Source of the DNA: a virus
Taxonomy: Duplodnaviria > Heunggongvirae > Uroviricota > Caudoviricetes
Strand: one strand, 5' to 3'
DNA: 4,524 bases
IMG/VR virus record: IMGVR_UViG_2693429700_000009
Under the pieces are notes generated by a model. The model worked only from the letters and a program-made list of their open reading frames with translations. It was not told the origin of the DNA and ran no database searches. The position numbers and the translations under genes are program-made. Shown here one piece after another: positions 1-4,524 of the stretch; the first letter of the stretch is position 1, and every line of letters starts with the position of its first letter.

Positions 1-561
1 GAGATTGTGGCGCTGGTCCACAGCCACCCCGGTGGTCTGCCCTGGCTGAGTGAGGCCGACCGGCGGCTGCAGGTGCAGAGTGATTTGCCGTGGTGGCTGG
101 TCTGCCGGGGTGAGATTCATAAGTTCCGCTGTGTGCCGCATCTCACCGGGCGGCGCTTTGAGCACGGTGTGACGGACTGTTACACACTGTTCCGGGATGC
201 TTATCATCTGGCGGAGATTGAGATGCCGGATTTTGTGCGTGAGGATGACTGGTGGCGTAACGGTCAGAATCTCTATCTGGATAATCTGGAGGCCACAGGG
301 CTGTATCAGGTGCCGTTGTCAGCGGCGCAGCCGGGCGATGTGCTGCTGTGCTGTTTTGGTTCATCGGTGCCGAATCACGCCGCTATTTACTGTGGTGACG
401 GCGAGCTGCTGCACCATATTCCTGAACAACTGAGTAAACGGGAGAGGTATACCGACAAATGGCAGCGACGCACACACTCCCTCTGGCGTCACCGGGAATG
501 GCACGCATCTGCCTTTACGGGGATTTGCAACGATTTGGCCGCCGCATCGACCTTCGTGTGA
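1..561 (+). CDS. K: Tail tip assembly protein K (gpK-like; JAMM/MPN metallopeptidase motif plus NlpC/P60 cysteine peptidase domain); 5'-partial, true start lies upstream of the window
   Basis: Frame 1 is open from nt 1 to the TGA at 559-561. Translation begins EIVALVHSHPGGLPWLSEAD, which fits the JAMM motif HxHx7SxxD (His codons 19-21 and 25-27, Ser 49-51, Asp 58-60). Downstream are NlpC/P60-type candidate catalytic residues: Cys in HGVTDCYTLF (178-180), His in VPNHAAIY (376-378) and His-His in ELLHHIP (412-417). The sequence matches lambda gpK from memory. The ORF-track start at nt 7 (GTG) is a window-edge artefact. Confidence 0.9.
   Translation, partial: EIVALVHSHPGGLPWLSEADRRLQVQSDLPWWLVCRGEIHKFRCVPHLTGRRFEHGVTDCYTLFRDAYHLAEIEMPDFVREDDWWRNGQNLYLDNLEATGLYQVPLSAAQPGDVLLCCFGSSVPNHAAIYCGDGELLHHIPEQLSKRERYTDKWQRRTHSLWRHREWHASAFTGICNDLAAASTFV
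441..447 (+). promoter_or_regulatory. Shine-Dalgarno-like element for gene I, embedded in the K coding sequence
   Basis: GGAGAGG at 441-447, 11 nt upstream of the I ATG (459). The spacing is slightly long but acceptable, and translational coupling to K is plausible. Confidence 0.5.
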
Positions 562-1130
562 AAACGGGGGCTGAAGCCATCCGCGCACTGGCCACACAGC
601 TCCCGGCGTTTCGTCAGAAACTGAGCGACGGCTGGTATCAGGTACGGATTGCCGGGCGGGACGTCAGCGCGTCCGGGTTAACGGCGCAGTTACATGAGAC
701 TCTGCCTGATGGCGCTGTGATTCATATTGTTCCCAGAGTCGCCGGGGCCAAGTCAGGTGGCGTATTCCAGATTGTCCTGGGGGCTGCCGCCATTGCCGGA
801 TCATTCTTTACCGCCGGAGCCACCCTTGCAGCATGGGGGGCAGCCATTGGGGCCGGTGGTATGACCGGCATCCTGTTTTCTCTCGGTGCCAGTATGGTGC
901 TCGGTGGTGTGGCGCAGATGCTGGCACCGAAAGCCAGAACTCCCCGTACACAGACAACGGATAACGGTAAGCAGAACACCTATTTCTCCTCACTGGATAA
1001 CATGGTTGCCCAGGGCAATGTTCTGCCTGTTCTGTACGGGGAAATGCGCGTGGGGTCTCGCGTGGTTTCTCAGGAGATCAGCACGGCAGACGAAGGGGAC
1101 GGTGGTCAGGTTGTGGTGATTGGTCGCTGA
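459..1130 (+). CDS. I: Tail tip assembly protein I (gpI-like; N-terminal ubiquitin-like/beta-grasp region, Gly-Gly junction, Gly/Ala-rich hydrophobic segment, conserved C-terminal region)
   Basis: ATG at 459 to TGA at 1128-1130, 223 codons. The protein begins MAATHTLPLASPGMARICLYGDLQRFGRRIDL and ends QVVVIGR, which is near-identical to lambda gpI as I recall it (also 223 aa). It overlaps the K 3' end by 103 nt in a different frame, as in lambda. An SD-like GGAGAGG lies at 441-447. Confidence 0.92.
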   Translation: MAATHTLPLASPGMARICLYGDLQRFGRRIDLRVKTGAEAIRALATQLPAFRQKLSDGWYQVRIAGRDVSASGLTAQLHETLPDGAVIHIVPRVAGAKSGGVFQIVLGAAAIAGSFFTAGATLAAWGAAIGAGGMTGILFSLGASMVLGGVAQMLAPKARTPRTQTTDNGKQNTYFSSLDNMVAQGNVLPVLYGEMRVGSRVVSQEISTADEGDGGQVVVIGR

Positions 1131-1148
1131 TGCAAAATGTTTTATGTG

Positions 1149-1169
1149 AAACCGCCTGCGGGCGGTTTT
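1149..1169 (+). terminator. Candidate stem-loop with 3' T-run in the I-J spacer (possible intrinsic terminator, attenuator or RNA stability element; function unproven)
   Basis: AAACCGCC (1149-1156), loop TGCG (1157-1160), GGCGGTTT (1161-1168) form a perfect 8-bp stem with a GC-rich core, followed by T at 1169. It starts 19 nt after the I stop and ends 22 nt before the J start. In a Q-antiterminated late operon it would be read through. Confidence 0.35.
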
Positions 1170-1178
1170 GTCGTTTAT

Positions 1179-1182
1179 GGAG
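1179..1182 (+). promoter_or_regulatory. Shine-Dalgarno element for gene J
   Basis: GGAG at 1179-1182 with an 8-nt spacer to the ATG at 1191. A second GAGGA at 1186-1190 abuts the start codon and is too close to act as the SD. Confidence 0.6.
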
Positions 1183-1190
1183 CGTGAGGA

Positions 1191-4100
1191 ATGGGTAAAG
1201 GCAGCAGTAAGGGGCATACCCCGCGCGAAGCGAAGGACAACCTGAAGTCCACGCAGCTGCTGAGTGTGATCGATGCCATCAGTGAAGGGCCGGTTGAAGG
1301 TCCGGTGGATGGATTAAAAAGCGTGCTGCTGAACAGTACGCCGGTGCTGGACAGTGAGGGGAATACCAACATCTCCGGCGTCACGGTGGTGTTCCGGGCA
1401 GGTGAGCAGGAGCAGACACCGCCGGAAGGTTTTGAATCCTCCGGCTCCGAGACGGTGCTGGGTACGGAAGTGAAATATGACACGCCGATCACCCGCACCA
1501 TCACGTCGGCAAACATCGACCGTCTGCGCTTTACCTTCGGTGTGCAGGCACTGGTGGAAACCACCTCAAAGGGGGACCGGAATCCGTCGGAAGTCCGCCT
1601 GCTGGTTCAGATACAGCGTAACGGTGGCTGGGTGACGGAAAAAGACATCACCATTAAGGGCAAAACCACCTCGCAGTATCTGGCCTCGGTGGTGGATAAC
1701 CTGCCGCCGCGCCCGTTTAATATCCGGATGCGCAGGATGACGCCGGACAGCACCACAGACCAGCTGCAGAACAAAACGCTCTGGTCGTCATACACCGAAA
1801 TCATCGATGTGAAACAGTGCTACCCGAACACGGCACTGGTCGGCGTACAGGTGGACTCGGAGCAGTTCGGCAGCCAGCAGGTGAGTCGTAATTATCATCT
1901 TCGCGGGCGCATTCTGCAGGTGCCGTCGAACTATAACCCGCAGACGCGACAATACAGCGGTATCTGGGACGGAACGTTAAAACCGGCATACAGCAACAAC
2001 ATGGCCTGGTGTCTGTGGGATATGCTGACCCACCCGCGCTACGGCATGGGGAAACGTCTTGGTGCGGCGGATGTGGACAAATGGGCGCTGTATGTCATCG
2101 GCCAGTACTGCGACCAGTCAGTGCCGGACGGCTCTGGCGGCACGGAGCCGCGCATCACCTGTAATGCGTACCTGACCACACAGCGCAAGGCGTGGGATGT
2201 GCTCAGTGATTTCTGCTCGGCGATGCGCTGTATGCCGGTATGGAACGGGCAGACGCTGACGTTCGTGCAGGACCGACCGTCGGATAAGGTGTGGACCTAT
2301 AACCGCAGTAATGTGGTGATGCCGGATGATGGCGCGCCGTTCCGCTACAGCTTCAGCGCCCTGAAGGACCGCCATAATGCCGTTGAGGTGAACTGGATTG
2401 ACCCGAATAACGGCTGGGAGACGGCGACAGAGCTTGTGGAGGACACGCAGGCCATTGCCCGTTACGGTCGTAACGTCACGAAGATGGATGCCTTTGGCTG
2501 TACCAGCCGGGGGCAGGCACACCGCGCCGGGCTGTGGCTGATTAAAACAGAACTGCTGGAAACGCAGACCGTGGACTTCAGCGTGGGTGCCGAAGGGCTT
2601 CGCCATGTGCCGGGCGATGTCATTGAAATCTGCGATGATGACTATGCCGGTATCCGCACCGGCGGGCGCGTGCTGGCGGTAAACAGCCAGACCCGGACGC
2701 TGACGCTCGACCGTGAAATCACGCTGCCAGCCTCCGGCACCACGCTGATAAGCCTGGTTGACGGGCAGGGGAGTCCGGTCAGCGTGGAGGTTCAGTCCGT
2801 CACCGACGGCGTGAAGGTGAAAGTGAGCCGTGTTCCTGACGGCGTTGCTGAATACAGCGTATGGGGGCTGAAGCTGCCGACGTTGCGCCAGCGCCTGTTC
2901 CGCTGCGTGAGTATCCGTGAGAACGACGACGGCACGTATGCCATCACCGCCGTGCAGCATGTACCGGAAAAAGAGGCCATCGTGGATAACGGGGCGCACT
3001 TTGACGGCGACCAGAGCGGCACGGTAAATGGTGTCACGCCGCCAGCGGTGCAGCACCTGACCGCCGAAGTCACCGCAGACAGCGGGGAATATCAGGTGCT
3101 GGCGCGCTGGGACACACCGAAGGTGGTGAAGGGGGTGAGCTTCCTGCTTCGCCTGACCGTGGCAGCGGATGACGGCAGTGAGCGGCTGGTCAGCACGGCC
3201 CGGACGGCGGAAACCACATACCGCTTCACACAACTGGCGCTGGGGAACTACAGGCTGACAGTCCGGGCGGTAAATGCGTGGGGACAGCAGGGCGATCCGG
3301 CATCGGTATCGTTCCGGATTGCCGCCCCGGCAGCGCCTGTCACTATTGAACTGATACCGGGGTATTTTCAGATAACGGCGGTCCCGAAACTGGCTGTATA
3401 TGACCCGACGGTACAGTTTGAGTTCTGGTTCTCGGAAAAGCGGATTACCGATATCAGGCAGGTTGAAACCACAGCCCGCTATCTTGGTACGGCGCTGTAC
3501 TGGATAGCCGCCAGTATCAATATCAAACCGGGCCATGATTATTACTTTTATATCCGCAGTGTGAACACCGTTGGTAAATCGGCATTCGTGGAGGCTGTCG
3601 GTCAGCCGAGTGATGATGCATCAGGCTATCTGGATTTTTTCAAAGGAGAGATAGGGAAAACCCATCTGGCTCAGGAGTTGTGGACGCAGATTGATAACGG
3701 TCAGCTTGCGCCTGACCTGGCTGAAATCAGGACGTCCATTACGGATGTCAGCAATGAAATCACGCAGACCGTCAATAAGAAACTGGAAGACCAGAGTGCG
3801 GCAATTCAGCAGATACAGAAGGTTCAGGTTGATACAAATAATAACCTGAACAGCATGTGGGCTGTGAAGCTGCAGCAGATGCAGGACGGACGCCTTTATA
3901 TCGCGGGTATTGGTGCCGGTATTGAGAACACCTCTGACGGCATGCAGAGTCAGGTGCTGCTGGCGGCGGACAGGATTGCGATGGTTAATCCTGCGAATGG
4001 CAACACAAAACCGATGTTTGTTGGTCAGGGCGATCAGATATTCATGAACGACGTGTTCCTGAAACGCCTGACGGCCCCCACCATTACCAGCGGTGGAAAT

Positions 4101-4524
4101 CCACCGGCATTTTCCCTGACACCGGACGGAAAGCTGACCGCTAAAAATGCGGATATCAGTGGCAGTGTGAATGCGAACGCCGGGACGCTCAACAATGTCA
4201 CGATTAACGAGAACTGTCGGGTTCTGGGAAAACTGTCCGCGAACCAGATTGAAGGCGATCTCGTTAAAACAGTGGGCAAAGCTTTCCCCCGGGACTCCCG
4301 TGCACCGGAACGGTGGCCATCAGGGACCATTACCGTCAGGGTTTATGACGATCAGCCGTTTGACCGGCAGATTGTTATTCCGGCGGTGGCATTCAGCGGC
4401 GCTAAACATGAGAGAGAGCATACTGATATTTACTCCTCATGCCGTCTGATAGTGCGGAAAAACGGTGCTGAAATTTATAACCGTACCGCGCTGGATAATA
4501 CGCTGATTTACAGTGGCGTTATTG
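1191..4524 (+). CDS. J: Tail tip host-specificity protein J (gpJ-like central tail fibre); 3'-partial, runs off the window end after about 1111 codons
   Basis: ATG at 1191 is preceded by GGAG at 1179-1182 with an 8-nt spacer. I translated the frame codon by codon to nt 4523 and found no stop. The N-terminus [34 protein letters not shown] and long internal stretches (for example [45 protein letters not shown] and [46 protein letters not shown]) match lambda gpJ from memory. Lambda J is about 1132 aa, so only a short C-terminal piece is missing. The ORF is absent from the supplied track, presumably because it has no in-window stop. Confidence 0.95.

What the first reader, a model, noticed from the sequence alone, without database searches (positions are those of the whole stretch)
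459..926. gpI looks like a ubiquitin-like domain ending in Gly-Gly, fused to a glycine-zipper hydrophobic segment
Residues 1-99 of I are a small, probably beta-grasp-like domain that ends ...VIHIVPRVAGAKSGG, with the Gly-Gly at codons 100-101 (nt 756-761). Immediately after comes a roughly 55-residue Gly/Ala-rich hydrophobic stretch (VFQIVLGAAAIAGSFFTAGATLAAWGAAIGAGGMTGILFSLGASMVLGGVAQMLAP, nt 762-926) with repeated small-xxx-small spacing typical of glycine-zipper or membrane-inserting segments. With a JAMM peptidase encoded in the overlapping upstream gene, this resembles a self-contained ubiquitin-like processing module in a phage tail operon. It has been predicted in the literature but remains largely untested. 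The hydrophobic segment could matter for tail-tip or host-membrane interaction.
Basis: partly seen in the sequence, partly recalled or inferred. Interest (0 to 1): 0.5.

Follow-up and report, generated by a model that had tools for sequence, protein, structure and literature searches.

The report
Lambda gpI: ubiquitin-like tail-tip precursor
This is phage lambda's tail-tip protein I: the neighbouring protease K is reported to clip off its ubiquitin-like front end during tail assembly, and its greasy middle part sits inside the tail tip, so the finding is right in outline but already described.

Summary
The ORF at 459-1130 is lambda gpI (2 substitutions against PDB 8IYK). The core of the finding holds.

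- **Hydrophobic segment.** A conserved Gly/Ala-rich stretch follows at residues 102-156.
- **Upstream gene.** The overlapping gene K carries an intact JAMM motif.

None of this is new. The Ubl/JAB module was predicted in 2006. Cryo-EM (2023-2025) shows residues 101/134-223 as a trimeric plug in the tail-tip lumen, with two hydrophobic helices proposed to enter the outer membrane. A 2025 conference report states that gpK cleaves the Ubl off gpI. An F-pyocin homologue loses its N-terminus on maturation.

Two details of the finding do not hold.

- **The Ub-like terminus.** The family-invariant pair is G96-A97, not G100-G101. G96-A97 aligns with the terminal GG of MoaD, ThiS and ubiquitin. The 100-101 GG is missing in 41% of diverse homologues, and four checked loci without it still have JAMM-bearing K genes.
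- **Glycine zipper.** Small-xxx-small spacing does not exceed what the composition gives. The only formal zipper patterns lie in a lambda-specific loop insertion.

Verdict: already known, low interest.

The parts
1..561 (+). 3' part of gene K (tail tip assembly protein K), cut by the window edge. It holds the end of the JAMM/JAB domain and the NlpC/P60 domain. Stop TGA at 559-561.
   Evidence: Pfam Prok-JAB (profile 67-113 of 114; 21.2 bits, below the 25-bit cut-off because truncated) and NLPC_P60 (residues 50-163 = nt 148-489). Translation. The C-terminus aligns with K homologues of distant loci.
19..60 (+). JAMM zinc-site motif HSHPGGLPWLSEAD (H-x-H-x7-S-x2-D) of K
   Evidence: Regex match. 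The same motif is present in K homologues of L002, L004, L005 and L006.
459..1130 (+). Gene I (tail tip assembly protein I, 223 aa), overlapping K by 103 nt in another frame
   Evidence: ORF list. Two substitutions (A71 for T, T164 for I) against PDB 8IYK/8IYL/8K35/8XCG chains, E 1.4e-140. The window is about 95% identical to lambda-like phages annotated K/I/J.
498..749 (+). Ubiquitin-like beta-grasp domain, residues 14-97 (Pfam PF06805 Lambda_tail_I). ATG 498 (Met14) is a possible alternative start.
744..749 (+). G96-A97: family-invariant small pair, equivalent to the C-terminal Gly-Gly of MoaD/ThiS/ubiquitin. My preferred candidate for the residues just before the scissile bond.
   Evidence: G96 in 56 of 58 and residue 97 A/S/G in 57 of 58. 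HMM register to 4n6e_B and 3rpf_C. hhalign register to MoaD, ThiS and Ub. The ordered model ends at G96.
750..761 (+). Variable linker K98-S99-G100-G101.
   Evidence: Indels and substitutions across homologues, with GG present in 34 of 58. AF2 places G100-G101 at the N-cap of helix H1. The published closed-state model is resolved from residue 101 (PMC11101478).
762..926 (+). Gly/Ala-rich hydrophobic segment, residues 102-156. It forms helix H1 (about 100-129, nt 756-845), a loop with a lambda-specific insertion at 129-134 (nt 843-860), and helix H2 (137-155, nt 867-923).
   Evidence: Hydropathy. AF2 helices. G108 and G143 are invariant and G150 nearly so; positions 115, 145 and 149 are small (G/A/S) in 91-97% and position 152 in 83%. 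H1/H2 are seen in the closed-state cryo-EM model.
933..1127 (+). Plug (residues 159-175) and C-terminal beta-strand region (176-223) that inserts between gpJ hub domains
   Evidence: Residue ranges come from PMC11101478 and PMC10721106. Conserved F176, N181, G186, P190, G194 and G199. PDB 9E7M chains cover residues 133-222.
1191..4524 (+). 5' part of gene J (central tail fibre / tip attachment protein), the binding partner of mature gpI
   Evidence: Pfam FNIII-A_GpJ, Phage-tail_3, Ig_J, Phage_Tail_Tip and Ig_GpJ_C.

Best explanation
gpI is a three-part precursor of a structural tail-tip protein.

1. **Ubl domain.** Residues 14-97 form a MoaD/ThiS/SAMP-type ubiquitin-like beta-grasp.
2. **Hydrophobic hairpin.** Residues about 100-156 form a conserved, Gly/Ala-rich hydrophobic helical hairpin.
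3. **Plug.** Residues 159-223 form the plug and beta-strands that lock into gpJ and gpL.

The JAMM metalloprotease domain of gpK is encoded just upstream and overlaps I. It removes the Ubl once gpI has docked into the nascent tip complex. Neither the Ubl nor gpK is found in the virion. The Ubl most likely serves as a solubility or chaperone module for the hydrophobic hairpin and as an assembly checkpoint (inferred).

The mature fragment forms a trimer that cradles the C-terminal coiled coil of the tape-measure protein and plugs the tube. After LamB binding, the plug opens and the hairpin is released towards the outer membrane, where it may insert (proposed in the literature, not shown).

My own addition is about the cut site. 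The scissile bond most probably follows the invariant G96-A97, the equivalent of ubiquitin G75-G76, rather than G100-G101.
For: **Identity.** Two substitutions against lambda gpI in PDB 8IYK. Pfam PF06805.

**Protease.** The JAMM motif is intact in K. K-I adjacency with JAB + NlpC/P60 is conserved in distant M-L-K-I-J loci.

**Processing.**
- The conference report says gpK cleaves the Ubl from gpI only after gpI joins the tip complex (PMC12908700).
- The N-terminus of the F-pyocin homologue PA0640 is present in stalled tips but absent from mature particles.
- No cryo-EM model contains residues 1-100.
- Virion mass spectrometry found one gpI peptide with 9.87% coverage. That matches only the 22-residue tryptic peptide 202-223. 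gpK was not detected.

**Plug and membrane role.**

**Cut site.**
- G96 is present in 56 of 58 homologues and residue 97 is small in 57 of 58, whereas a linker GG occurs in 34 of 58.
- Four loci whose I protein has no GG after the domain (GAGKFGQ, GASKSPVVN, GSKDDVVGK, GAGNAARI) still have K genes with intact JAMM motifs.
- HMM and hhalign registers all put G96 on the penultimate Gly of CysO, MoaD, ThiS and ubiquitin.
- The published model starts at residue 101.
Against: - The cleavage by gpK is known to me only from a one-paragraph meeting summary. I found no full paper or stated site.
- The F-pyocin preprint did not identify the protease, and it saw the N-terminus removed by unknown E. coli proteases when PA0640 was expressed alone.
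- The cut-site inference rests on weak individual alignments (E 0.5-1.7; hhalign probabilities 34%, 0.8% and 4.5%).
- G101 is still present in 81% of homologues.
- The first modelled residue of a cryo-EM chain is not a reliable terminus.
- Membrane insertion has not been shown. Summed Hessa-type insertion energies are +1.5 to +2.7 kcal/mol, which is marginal, and the scale values came from memory.
Confidence: 0.8

Rival explanations
1. One reading: the Ubl ends at G100-G101, and gpK cuts after Gly101 to release a mature fragment beginning at V102.
For: Lambda has a literal Gly-Gly there. G101 is present in 81% and G100 in 59% of diverse homologues. Residues 97-101 are disordered in the Ubl-only model, like a Ub tail.
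Against: GG is absent in 24 of 58 homologues and the linker has indels. Loci lacking it keep JAMM-bearing K genes. Pfam and all fold-family registers end the domain at G96-A97. The closed-state model is reported from residue 101 on, which would be one residue upstream of such a cut. AF2 puts G100-G101 in the N-cap of H1.
Confidence: 0.25
2. No processing: the Ubl stays attached in the virion and is invisible only because it is flexibly tethered.
For: [quoted passage not shown] Absence of density alone cannot distinguish disorder from removal.
Against: The meeting report of gpK-dependent cleavage. Mass spectrometry shows loss of the N-terminal region in mature F-pyocin but not in stalled tips. 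The only gpI peptide in virion mass spectrometry matches residues 202-223, although the Ubl region yields three ordinary-length (9-10 residue) tryptic peptides. Three 9-kDa domains would have to fit in the tip lumen next to the gpH coiled coil.
Confidence: 0.07
3. The Ubl is a true modifier or sulfur carrier. After release it would be activated at its C-terminus and conjugated or thiocarboxylated, like MoaD, ThiS or SAMP.
For: Its closest folds are MoaD, SAMP1 and CysO. Iyer et al. raised similar interactions or thiolation as a possibility.
Against: No E1-like or ThiF/MoeB gene appears in the window or in the M-L-K-I-J loci examined. There is no Pfam ThiS hit even at E <= 10. The equivalent terminus is G-A or G-S rather than G-G.
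Confidence: 0.03
4. The hydrophobic segment is specifically a glycine-zipper channel former (GxxxGxxxG-type packing) that builds the outer-membrane pore.
For: The segment is very rich in Gly and Ala. Relaxed zipper patterns occur at 129-137 and 133-141. Membrane insertion of H1/H2 is proposed in the literature.
Against: There is no strict GxxxGxxxG. Spacing is not enriched over composition (p = 0.09). 63% of shuffles carry a relaxed pattern, and only 18 of 58 homologues have one. The lambda patterns lie in a non-conserved loop insertion. The best-conserved small positions (G108, position 115, G143, G150) show i/i+7 spacing, and the conserved S145-G149 pair is the only i/i+4 element; this fits packing in the helical bundle around gpH.
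Confidence: 0.1

Closest known systems
Phage lambda gpI (UniProt name 'Tail tip assembly protein I'; PDB 8IYK, 8IYL, 8K35, 8XCG, 9E7M)
   Same: The same protein for practical purposes: 223 aa with 2 substitutions (A71 for T, T164 for I), and the same K-I-J context.
   Different: Nothing functional can be inferred from the two substitutions. The window comes from a lambda-like phage or prophage about 95% identical in DNA.
F-type pyocin tip plug protein PA0640 (PDB 25VF chain 9) with the gpK homologue PA0639
   Same: Ubl, hydrophobic helices and plug architecture. Only the C-terminal part is seen in the particle. The N-terminus is removed on maturation, and the K homologue is needed for tip assembly.
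   Different: About 30% identity. The linker reads GSKQSG, with no Gly-Gly, and there is no 129-134 insertion. The responsible protease has not been shown.
MoaD / ThiS / CysO / SAMP1 / Urm1 sulfur-carrier and modifier beta-grasp proteins
   Different: gpI's Ubl is the N-terminal part of a larger precursor. It ends in G-A/S rather than G-G, has no partner E1, and gives no Pfam ThiS match.
JAMM-Ubl processing pairs (Mec+/CysO, QbsD/QbsE, HvJAMM1/SAMP, DRJAMM/MoaD-MoaE)
   Same: A JAMM metalloprotease encoded next to a MoaD-like Ubl, which it releases from a C-terminal extension or fusion (my own knowledge; PMC1779556; titles).
   Different: In gpI the useful product is the C-terminal fragment (a virion protein), not the freed Ubl. 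The protease is also fused to an NlpC/P60 domain.
Phage T5 pb3 plug domain
   Same: A trimeric tripod that closes the tube at the same place and is proposed to contact the outer membrane (PMC10721106).
   Different: It is part of the hub protein itself, with no Ubl and no separate gene.

Membership tests
Lambda_tail_I / TAPI family (Pfam PF06805) | Profile match above the curated cut-off | tested here: met
   98.5 bits against a 23.8-bit cut-off, residues 14-97.
Lambda_tail_I / TAPI family (Pfam PF06805) | Tripartite architecture: Ubl, Gly-rich hydrophobic region, C-terminal TAPI-C domain | tested here: met
   Full-length alignment to 57 diverse homologues with conserved columns in all three parts. 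The architecture is described in PMC1779556.
Lambda_tail_I / TAPI family (Pfam PF06805) | Gene position between K (JAB + NlpC/P60) and J | tested here: met
   Window. The same order holds in L002/L003, L004 and L005.
Ubiquitin-like beta-grasp superfamily (ThiS/MoaD clade) | Beta-grasp fold | tested here: met
Ubiquitin-like beta-grasp superfamily (ThiS/MoaD clade) | Sequence-level membership of Pfam ThiS (PF02597) | tested here: not met
   No ThiS hit at E <= 10. Only weak PDB profile hits to MoaD and CysO, E 0.5-1.7.
Ubiquitin-like beta-grasp superfamily (ThiS/MoaD clade) | C-terminal Gly-Gly directly after the last strand | tested here: inconclusive
   The equivalent positions are G96-A97 (G in 56 of 58; A/S/G in 57 of 58). 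The literal GG at 100-101 lies 4 residues downstream and is not conserved.
Ubiquitin-like beta-grasp superfamily (ThiS/MoaD clade) | Activation by an E1-like adenylating enzyme | not testable with these tools
   No E1-like gene in the window or the examined loci. Host enzymes cannot be excluded.
JAMM/MPN+ peptidase-Ubl processing module | Intact H-x-H-x7-S-x2-D zinc motif in the partner peptidase | tested here: met
   HSHPGGLPWLSEAD at nt 19-60. The upstream catalytic Glu lies outside the window.
JAMM/MPN+ peptidase-Ubl processing module | Peptidase actually cleaves at the Ubl C-terminus | not testable with these tools
   Only literature: the meeting report PMC12908700. The site is not given.
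Transmembrane glycine zipper (GxxxGxxxG and relaxed forms) | Conserved zipper pattern on one helix face | tested here: not met
   No strict pattern. The relaxed patterns occur only at 129-141, in a non-conserved insertion. 63% of shuffles and only 18 of 58 homologues carry one.
Membrane-inserting helical hairpin | Two hydrophobic helices long enough to span a bilayer | tested here: inconclusive
   AF2 helices at 100-129 and 137-155. Kyte-Doolittle 1.6-1.8, but summed Hessa-type energy is +1.5 to +2.7 kcal/mol. TMHMM-positive according to PMC7291167 and PMC11101478. Insertion has never been shown.

The most novel reading that the evidence does not exclude
The Ub-equivalent terminus, and hence the gpK cut, is at the invariant G96-A97|K98 and not at the conspicuous G100-G101. 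The mature plug protein would then begin with a short, usually basic tail (K/G-K/R-x-G) ahead of helix H1. The phage JAMM would accept Ala or Ser at P1, unlike canonical Gly-Gly-specific JAMM enzymes.

A bolder reading is also not excluded but has no support: that the freed MoaD-like Ubl has a second job in trans, for example as a decoy for host Ubl-conjugating defence systems that target the central tail fibre.
Probability: 0.5. Interest if true: 0.25.

Novelty: already known. Interest (0 to 1): 0.15.

Why it matters
The K-I pair is a minimal, self-contained ubiquitin-like protein plus JAMM protease system, used here as a checkpoint in building a virus tail. The hydrophobic hairpin it unmasks is a leading candidate for how lambda breaches the outer membrane. 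Both points are under active study and already published or presented, so this window adds no new biology. The one useful refinement is where the protease probably cuts.

Tried and rejected
- **Glycine-zipper reading.** Tested with shuffles and family conservation, and rejected.
- **Pfam scan of the Ubl at E <= 10 for ThiS/MoaD.** No hit. Fold search was needed instead.
- **The search for related loci with the 58-sequence alignment.** It failed because no stretch was conserved enough. I looked up individual distant homologues instead. L001 was too short to be useful.
- **Five literature searches for a full paper on gpK-gpI cleavage or the cut site.** They returned only the meeting summary. A sixth search on tail assembly protein K/I with JAMM/MPN gave nothing on phage. 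PMC11364771 and PMC13612043 were read and are not relevant to processing.
- **gpK-gpI complex prediction.** Not possible.
- **Minus-strand ORFs inside 459-926** (for example 722-979 and 664-804). Not pursued, because the + strand frame is fully explained by a conserved protein.

Full report
**What is there**

The window carries three genes on the + strand.
- The 3' part of gene K is open from nt 1, with its stop at 559-561.
- Gene I runs from 459 to 1130 and encodes 223 aa.
- Most of gene J follows, from 1191.

The I product differs from lambda gpI in PDB entries 8IYK, 8IYL, 8K35 and 8XCG at two positions, A71 for T and T164 for I (E 1.4e-140). The DNA is about 95% identical to lambda-like phages annotated K/I/J.

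G100-G101 are nt 756-761, and nt 762-926 encode the hydrophobic stretch. There is one slip: the quoted string includes P157, one codon beyond 926.

**The N-terminal domain**

Pfam PF06805 (Lambda_tail_I) matches residues 14-97 at 98.5 bits.

I built a 58-sequence alignment of diverse homologues (33-72% identity). It drew on a search of 1.84 billion cluster representatives that gave 3,201 hits at E <= 0.001. With it, AlphaFold2 predicts residues 14-95 at pLDDT 93-97, with a beta-beta-alpha-beta-beta-alpha-beta order. The domain alone reaches pLDDT 90.8 and pTM 0.78.

The domain is a MoaD/ThiS-class Ubl, as Iyer, Burroughs and Aravind predicted from sequence profiles in 2006 (PMC1779556).

**The partner protease**

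The K fragment contains HSHPGGLPWLSEAD, which is H-x-H-x7-S-x2-D, at nt 19-60. It also matches Pfam Prok-JAB (truncated, and below the cut-off for that reason) and NlpC/P60.

In distant metagenomic loci the order M-L-K-I-J is conserved. There K is a 247-264-aa JAB + NlpC/P60 protein.

**Where the Ubl ends**

This is where the finding needs correction.

- *Conservation.* Across the 58 homologues P92, G108 and G143 are invariant. G96 is present in 56 of 58, and residue 97 is A, S or G in 57 of 58. G100 and G101 are present in 59% and 81%. The stretch 98-101 varies in length, and a Gly-Gly occurs in it in only 34 of 58.
- *Domain boundary.* The Pfam model ends at A97. The ordered part of the AF2 model ends at G96.
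- *Register against the fold family.* A profile of the Ubl finds CysO 4n6e_B and MoaD 3rpf_C with gpI G96 on their penultimate residue. hhalign against MoaD, ThiS and ubiquitin puts G96 on the penultimate Gly each time. Each alignment is weak on its own, but all the registers agree.
- *Loci without the GG.* Four distant loci have I proteins with no Gly-Gly after the domain: GAGKFGQ, GASKSPVVN, GSKDDVVGK and GAGNAARI. All four still have a K gene with an intact JAMM motif.
- *Cryo-EM.* Ge and Wang state that the closed-state model resolves gpI 'from position 101 onward' (PMC11101478). That would be impossible if the chain began at V102. AF2 places G100-G101 at the N-cap of helix H1.

I therefore think the Ub-equivalent terminus is G96-A97, and that the cut most likely follows it. 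This step is inferred, not shown.

**The hydrophobic segment**

It is real and conserved. AF2 gives helices at 100-129 and 137-155. Kyte-Doolittle means reach 1.6-1.8.

The 'glycine zipper' label does not hold.
- Small-xxx-small pairs number 16, against 13.0 +/- 1.9 in shuffles (p = 0.09). GxxxG occurs twice, against 1.9 expected.
- There is no GxxxGxxxG. The two relaxed patterns, at 129-137 and 133-141, span an insertion (129-134) absent from 72-86% of homologues.
- 63% of shuffled sequences contain such a pattern, and only 18 of 58 homologues do.

The best-conserved small positions are G108, position 115 (A/S), G143, S145, G149 and G150, with position 152 small in 83%. That gives an i/i+7 spacing (108-115, 143-150) plus one S145-G149 pair. 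This fits tight packing in the helical bundle that cryo-EM shows around the gpH C-terminal coiled coil.

**What the literature already shows**

- *Predicted helices.* TMHMM-predicted helices in gpI were noted in 2020 (PMC7291167).
- *Virion structures.* They show a gpI trimer as a plug in the tip lumen, modelled from residue 135 (PMC10721106), 134 (PMC12617516) or 101. After LamB binding the plug opens and H1/H2 disappear from the density. The authors propose that they insert into the outer membrane.
- *Virion mass spectrometry.* It detected gpI but not gpK. The single gpI peptide, with 9.87% coverage, matches only the 22-residue tryptic peptide 202-223.
- *Cleavage.* At an October 2025 meeting the Davidson laboratory reported that gpK cleaves the Ubl from gpI, and does so only after gpI has joined other tip proteins (PMC12908700).
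- *F-pyocin.* For the F-pyocin homologue PA0640, the N-terminal region is detectable in stalled tips but not in mature particles. The K homologue PA0639 is required for tip assembly (bioRxiv 10.64898/2026.02.24.707460). A second preprint predicts the same two hydrophobic helices (PMC12874032).

**Mechanism, with status of each step**

| Step | Status |
|---|---|
| gpI is made as a precursor | shown by sequence |
| The Ubl keeps the hydrophobic hairpin soluble and blocks premature joining | inferred; also suggested |
| gpI docks into the gpJ/gpL tip | shown by the structures |
| The gpK JAMM domain removes the Ubl | reported; no details available to me |
| The cut follows G96-A97 | my inference, about 50-60% |
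| The mature trimer holds gpH and plugs the tube | shown by the structures |
| Receptor binding frees the hairpin, which enters the outer membrane | proposed, untested |

**Verdict**

Two descriptive details are not supported: 'ending in Gly-Gly' and 'glycine zipper'.

The practical consequence concerns mutant design. The proposed GG-to-AA test at residues 100-101 could give a misleading wild-type result, so G96/A97 should be targeted as well.

Novelty: already known. Interest: low.

Noticed in passing
window 459-561 (especially 498-561): K and I are dual-coding over 64-103 nt. K's C-terminal tail still aligns with distant K proteins, and it is read from the same DNA (in another frame) as the conserved first strand, helix and second strand of the I Ubl. 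In distant loci the K stop and the I start overlap by only 4-7 nt.
   Followed up: partly
window 558-561: GTG (558-560, Val34 of I) overlaps the K stop TGA (559-561) as GTGA. Many database entries, and the '190-residue gpI' of PMC7291167, start here. That start would delete residues 14-33 of the confidently predicted, conserved beta-grasp, so it is almost certainly a mis-annotation.
   Followed up: partly
window 459-497: Residues 1-13 (MAATHTLPLASPG) lie outside the Pfam domain, are poorly predicted (the first 10-residue block has mean pLDDT 64), and are absent from most homologues, which begin at the Met14 equivalent. A 210-aa form starting at ATG 498 is the commonest database version (P0012, 5,268 members). 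The true start codon is uncertain.
   Followed up: partly
window 1137-1185 (I-J intergenic region): A GC-rich hairpin (core AAACCGCC-UGCG-GGCGGUUU, within a longer stem) followed by a U-rich tract lies between the I stop and the J start. The fold is -21 kcal/mol, z -2.1 against shuffles. It looks like a terminator inside the late operon. The consensus scan did not call it.
   Followed up: partly
proteins P0009, P0013, P0014, P0017, P0030 and others: E. coli database proteins of 245-389 aa combine NlpC/P60 or Prok-JAB with Lambda_tail_I in one polypeptide. These could be frameshifted or mis-assembled genes, or the genuine K-I fusions mentioned by Iyer et al. 2006.
   Followed up: no
protein P0169 (sequence): A 2,783-aa highly repetitive protein matches gpI residues 10-62 in 23 stretches (repeat FGDFENLSRRMDLKVFADAIRASIREQL). 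It looks like a translated tandem repeat, and its score is inflated by repetition. It is probably unrelated.
   Followed up: partly
L007 1476-2183: A gpI homologue (P0175) is followed by a J-like gene but preceded by a pRha-family gene and a 77-aa ORF instead of K. This may be a mosaic junction, or a case where the protease is encoded elsewhere.
   Followed up: no
window 1-561 versus lambda annotation: The JAB match starts at profile position 67 at the window edge, and K homologues are 247-264 aa. The '199-aa' gpK cited in PMC7291167 would lack most of the JAMM domain. The commonly used gpK start may therefore be too far downstream.
   Followed up: no
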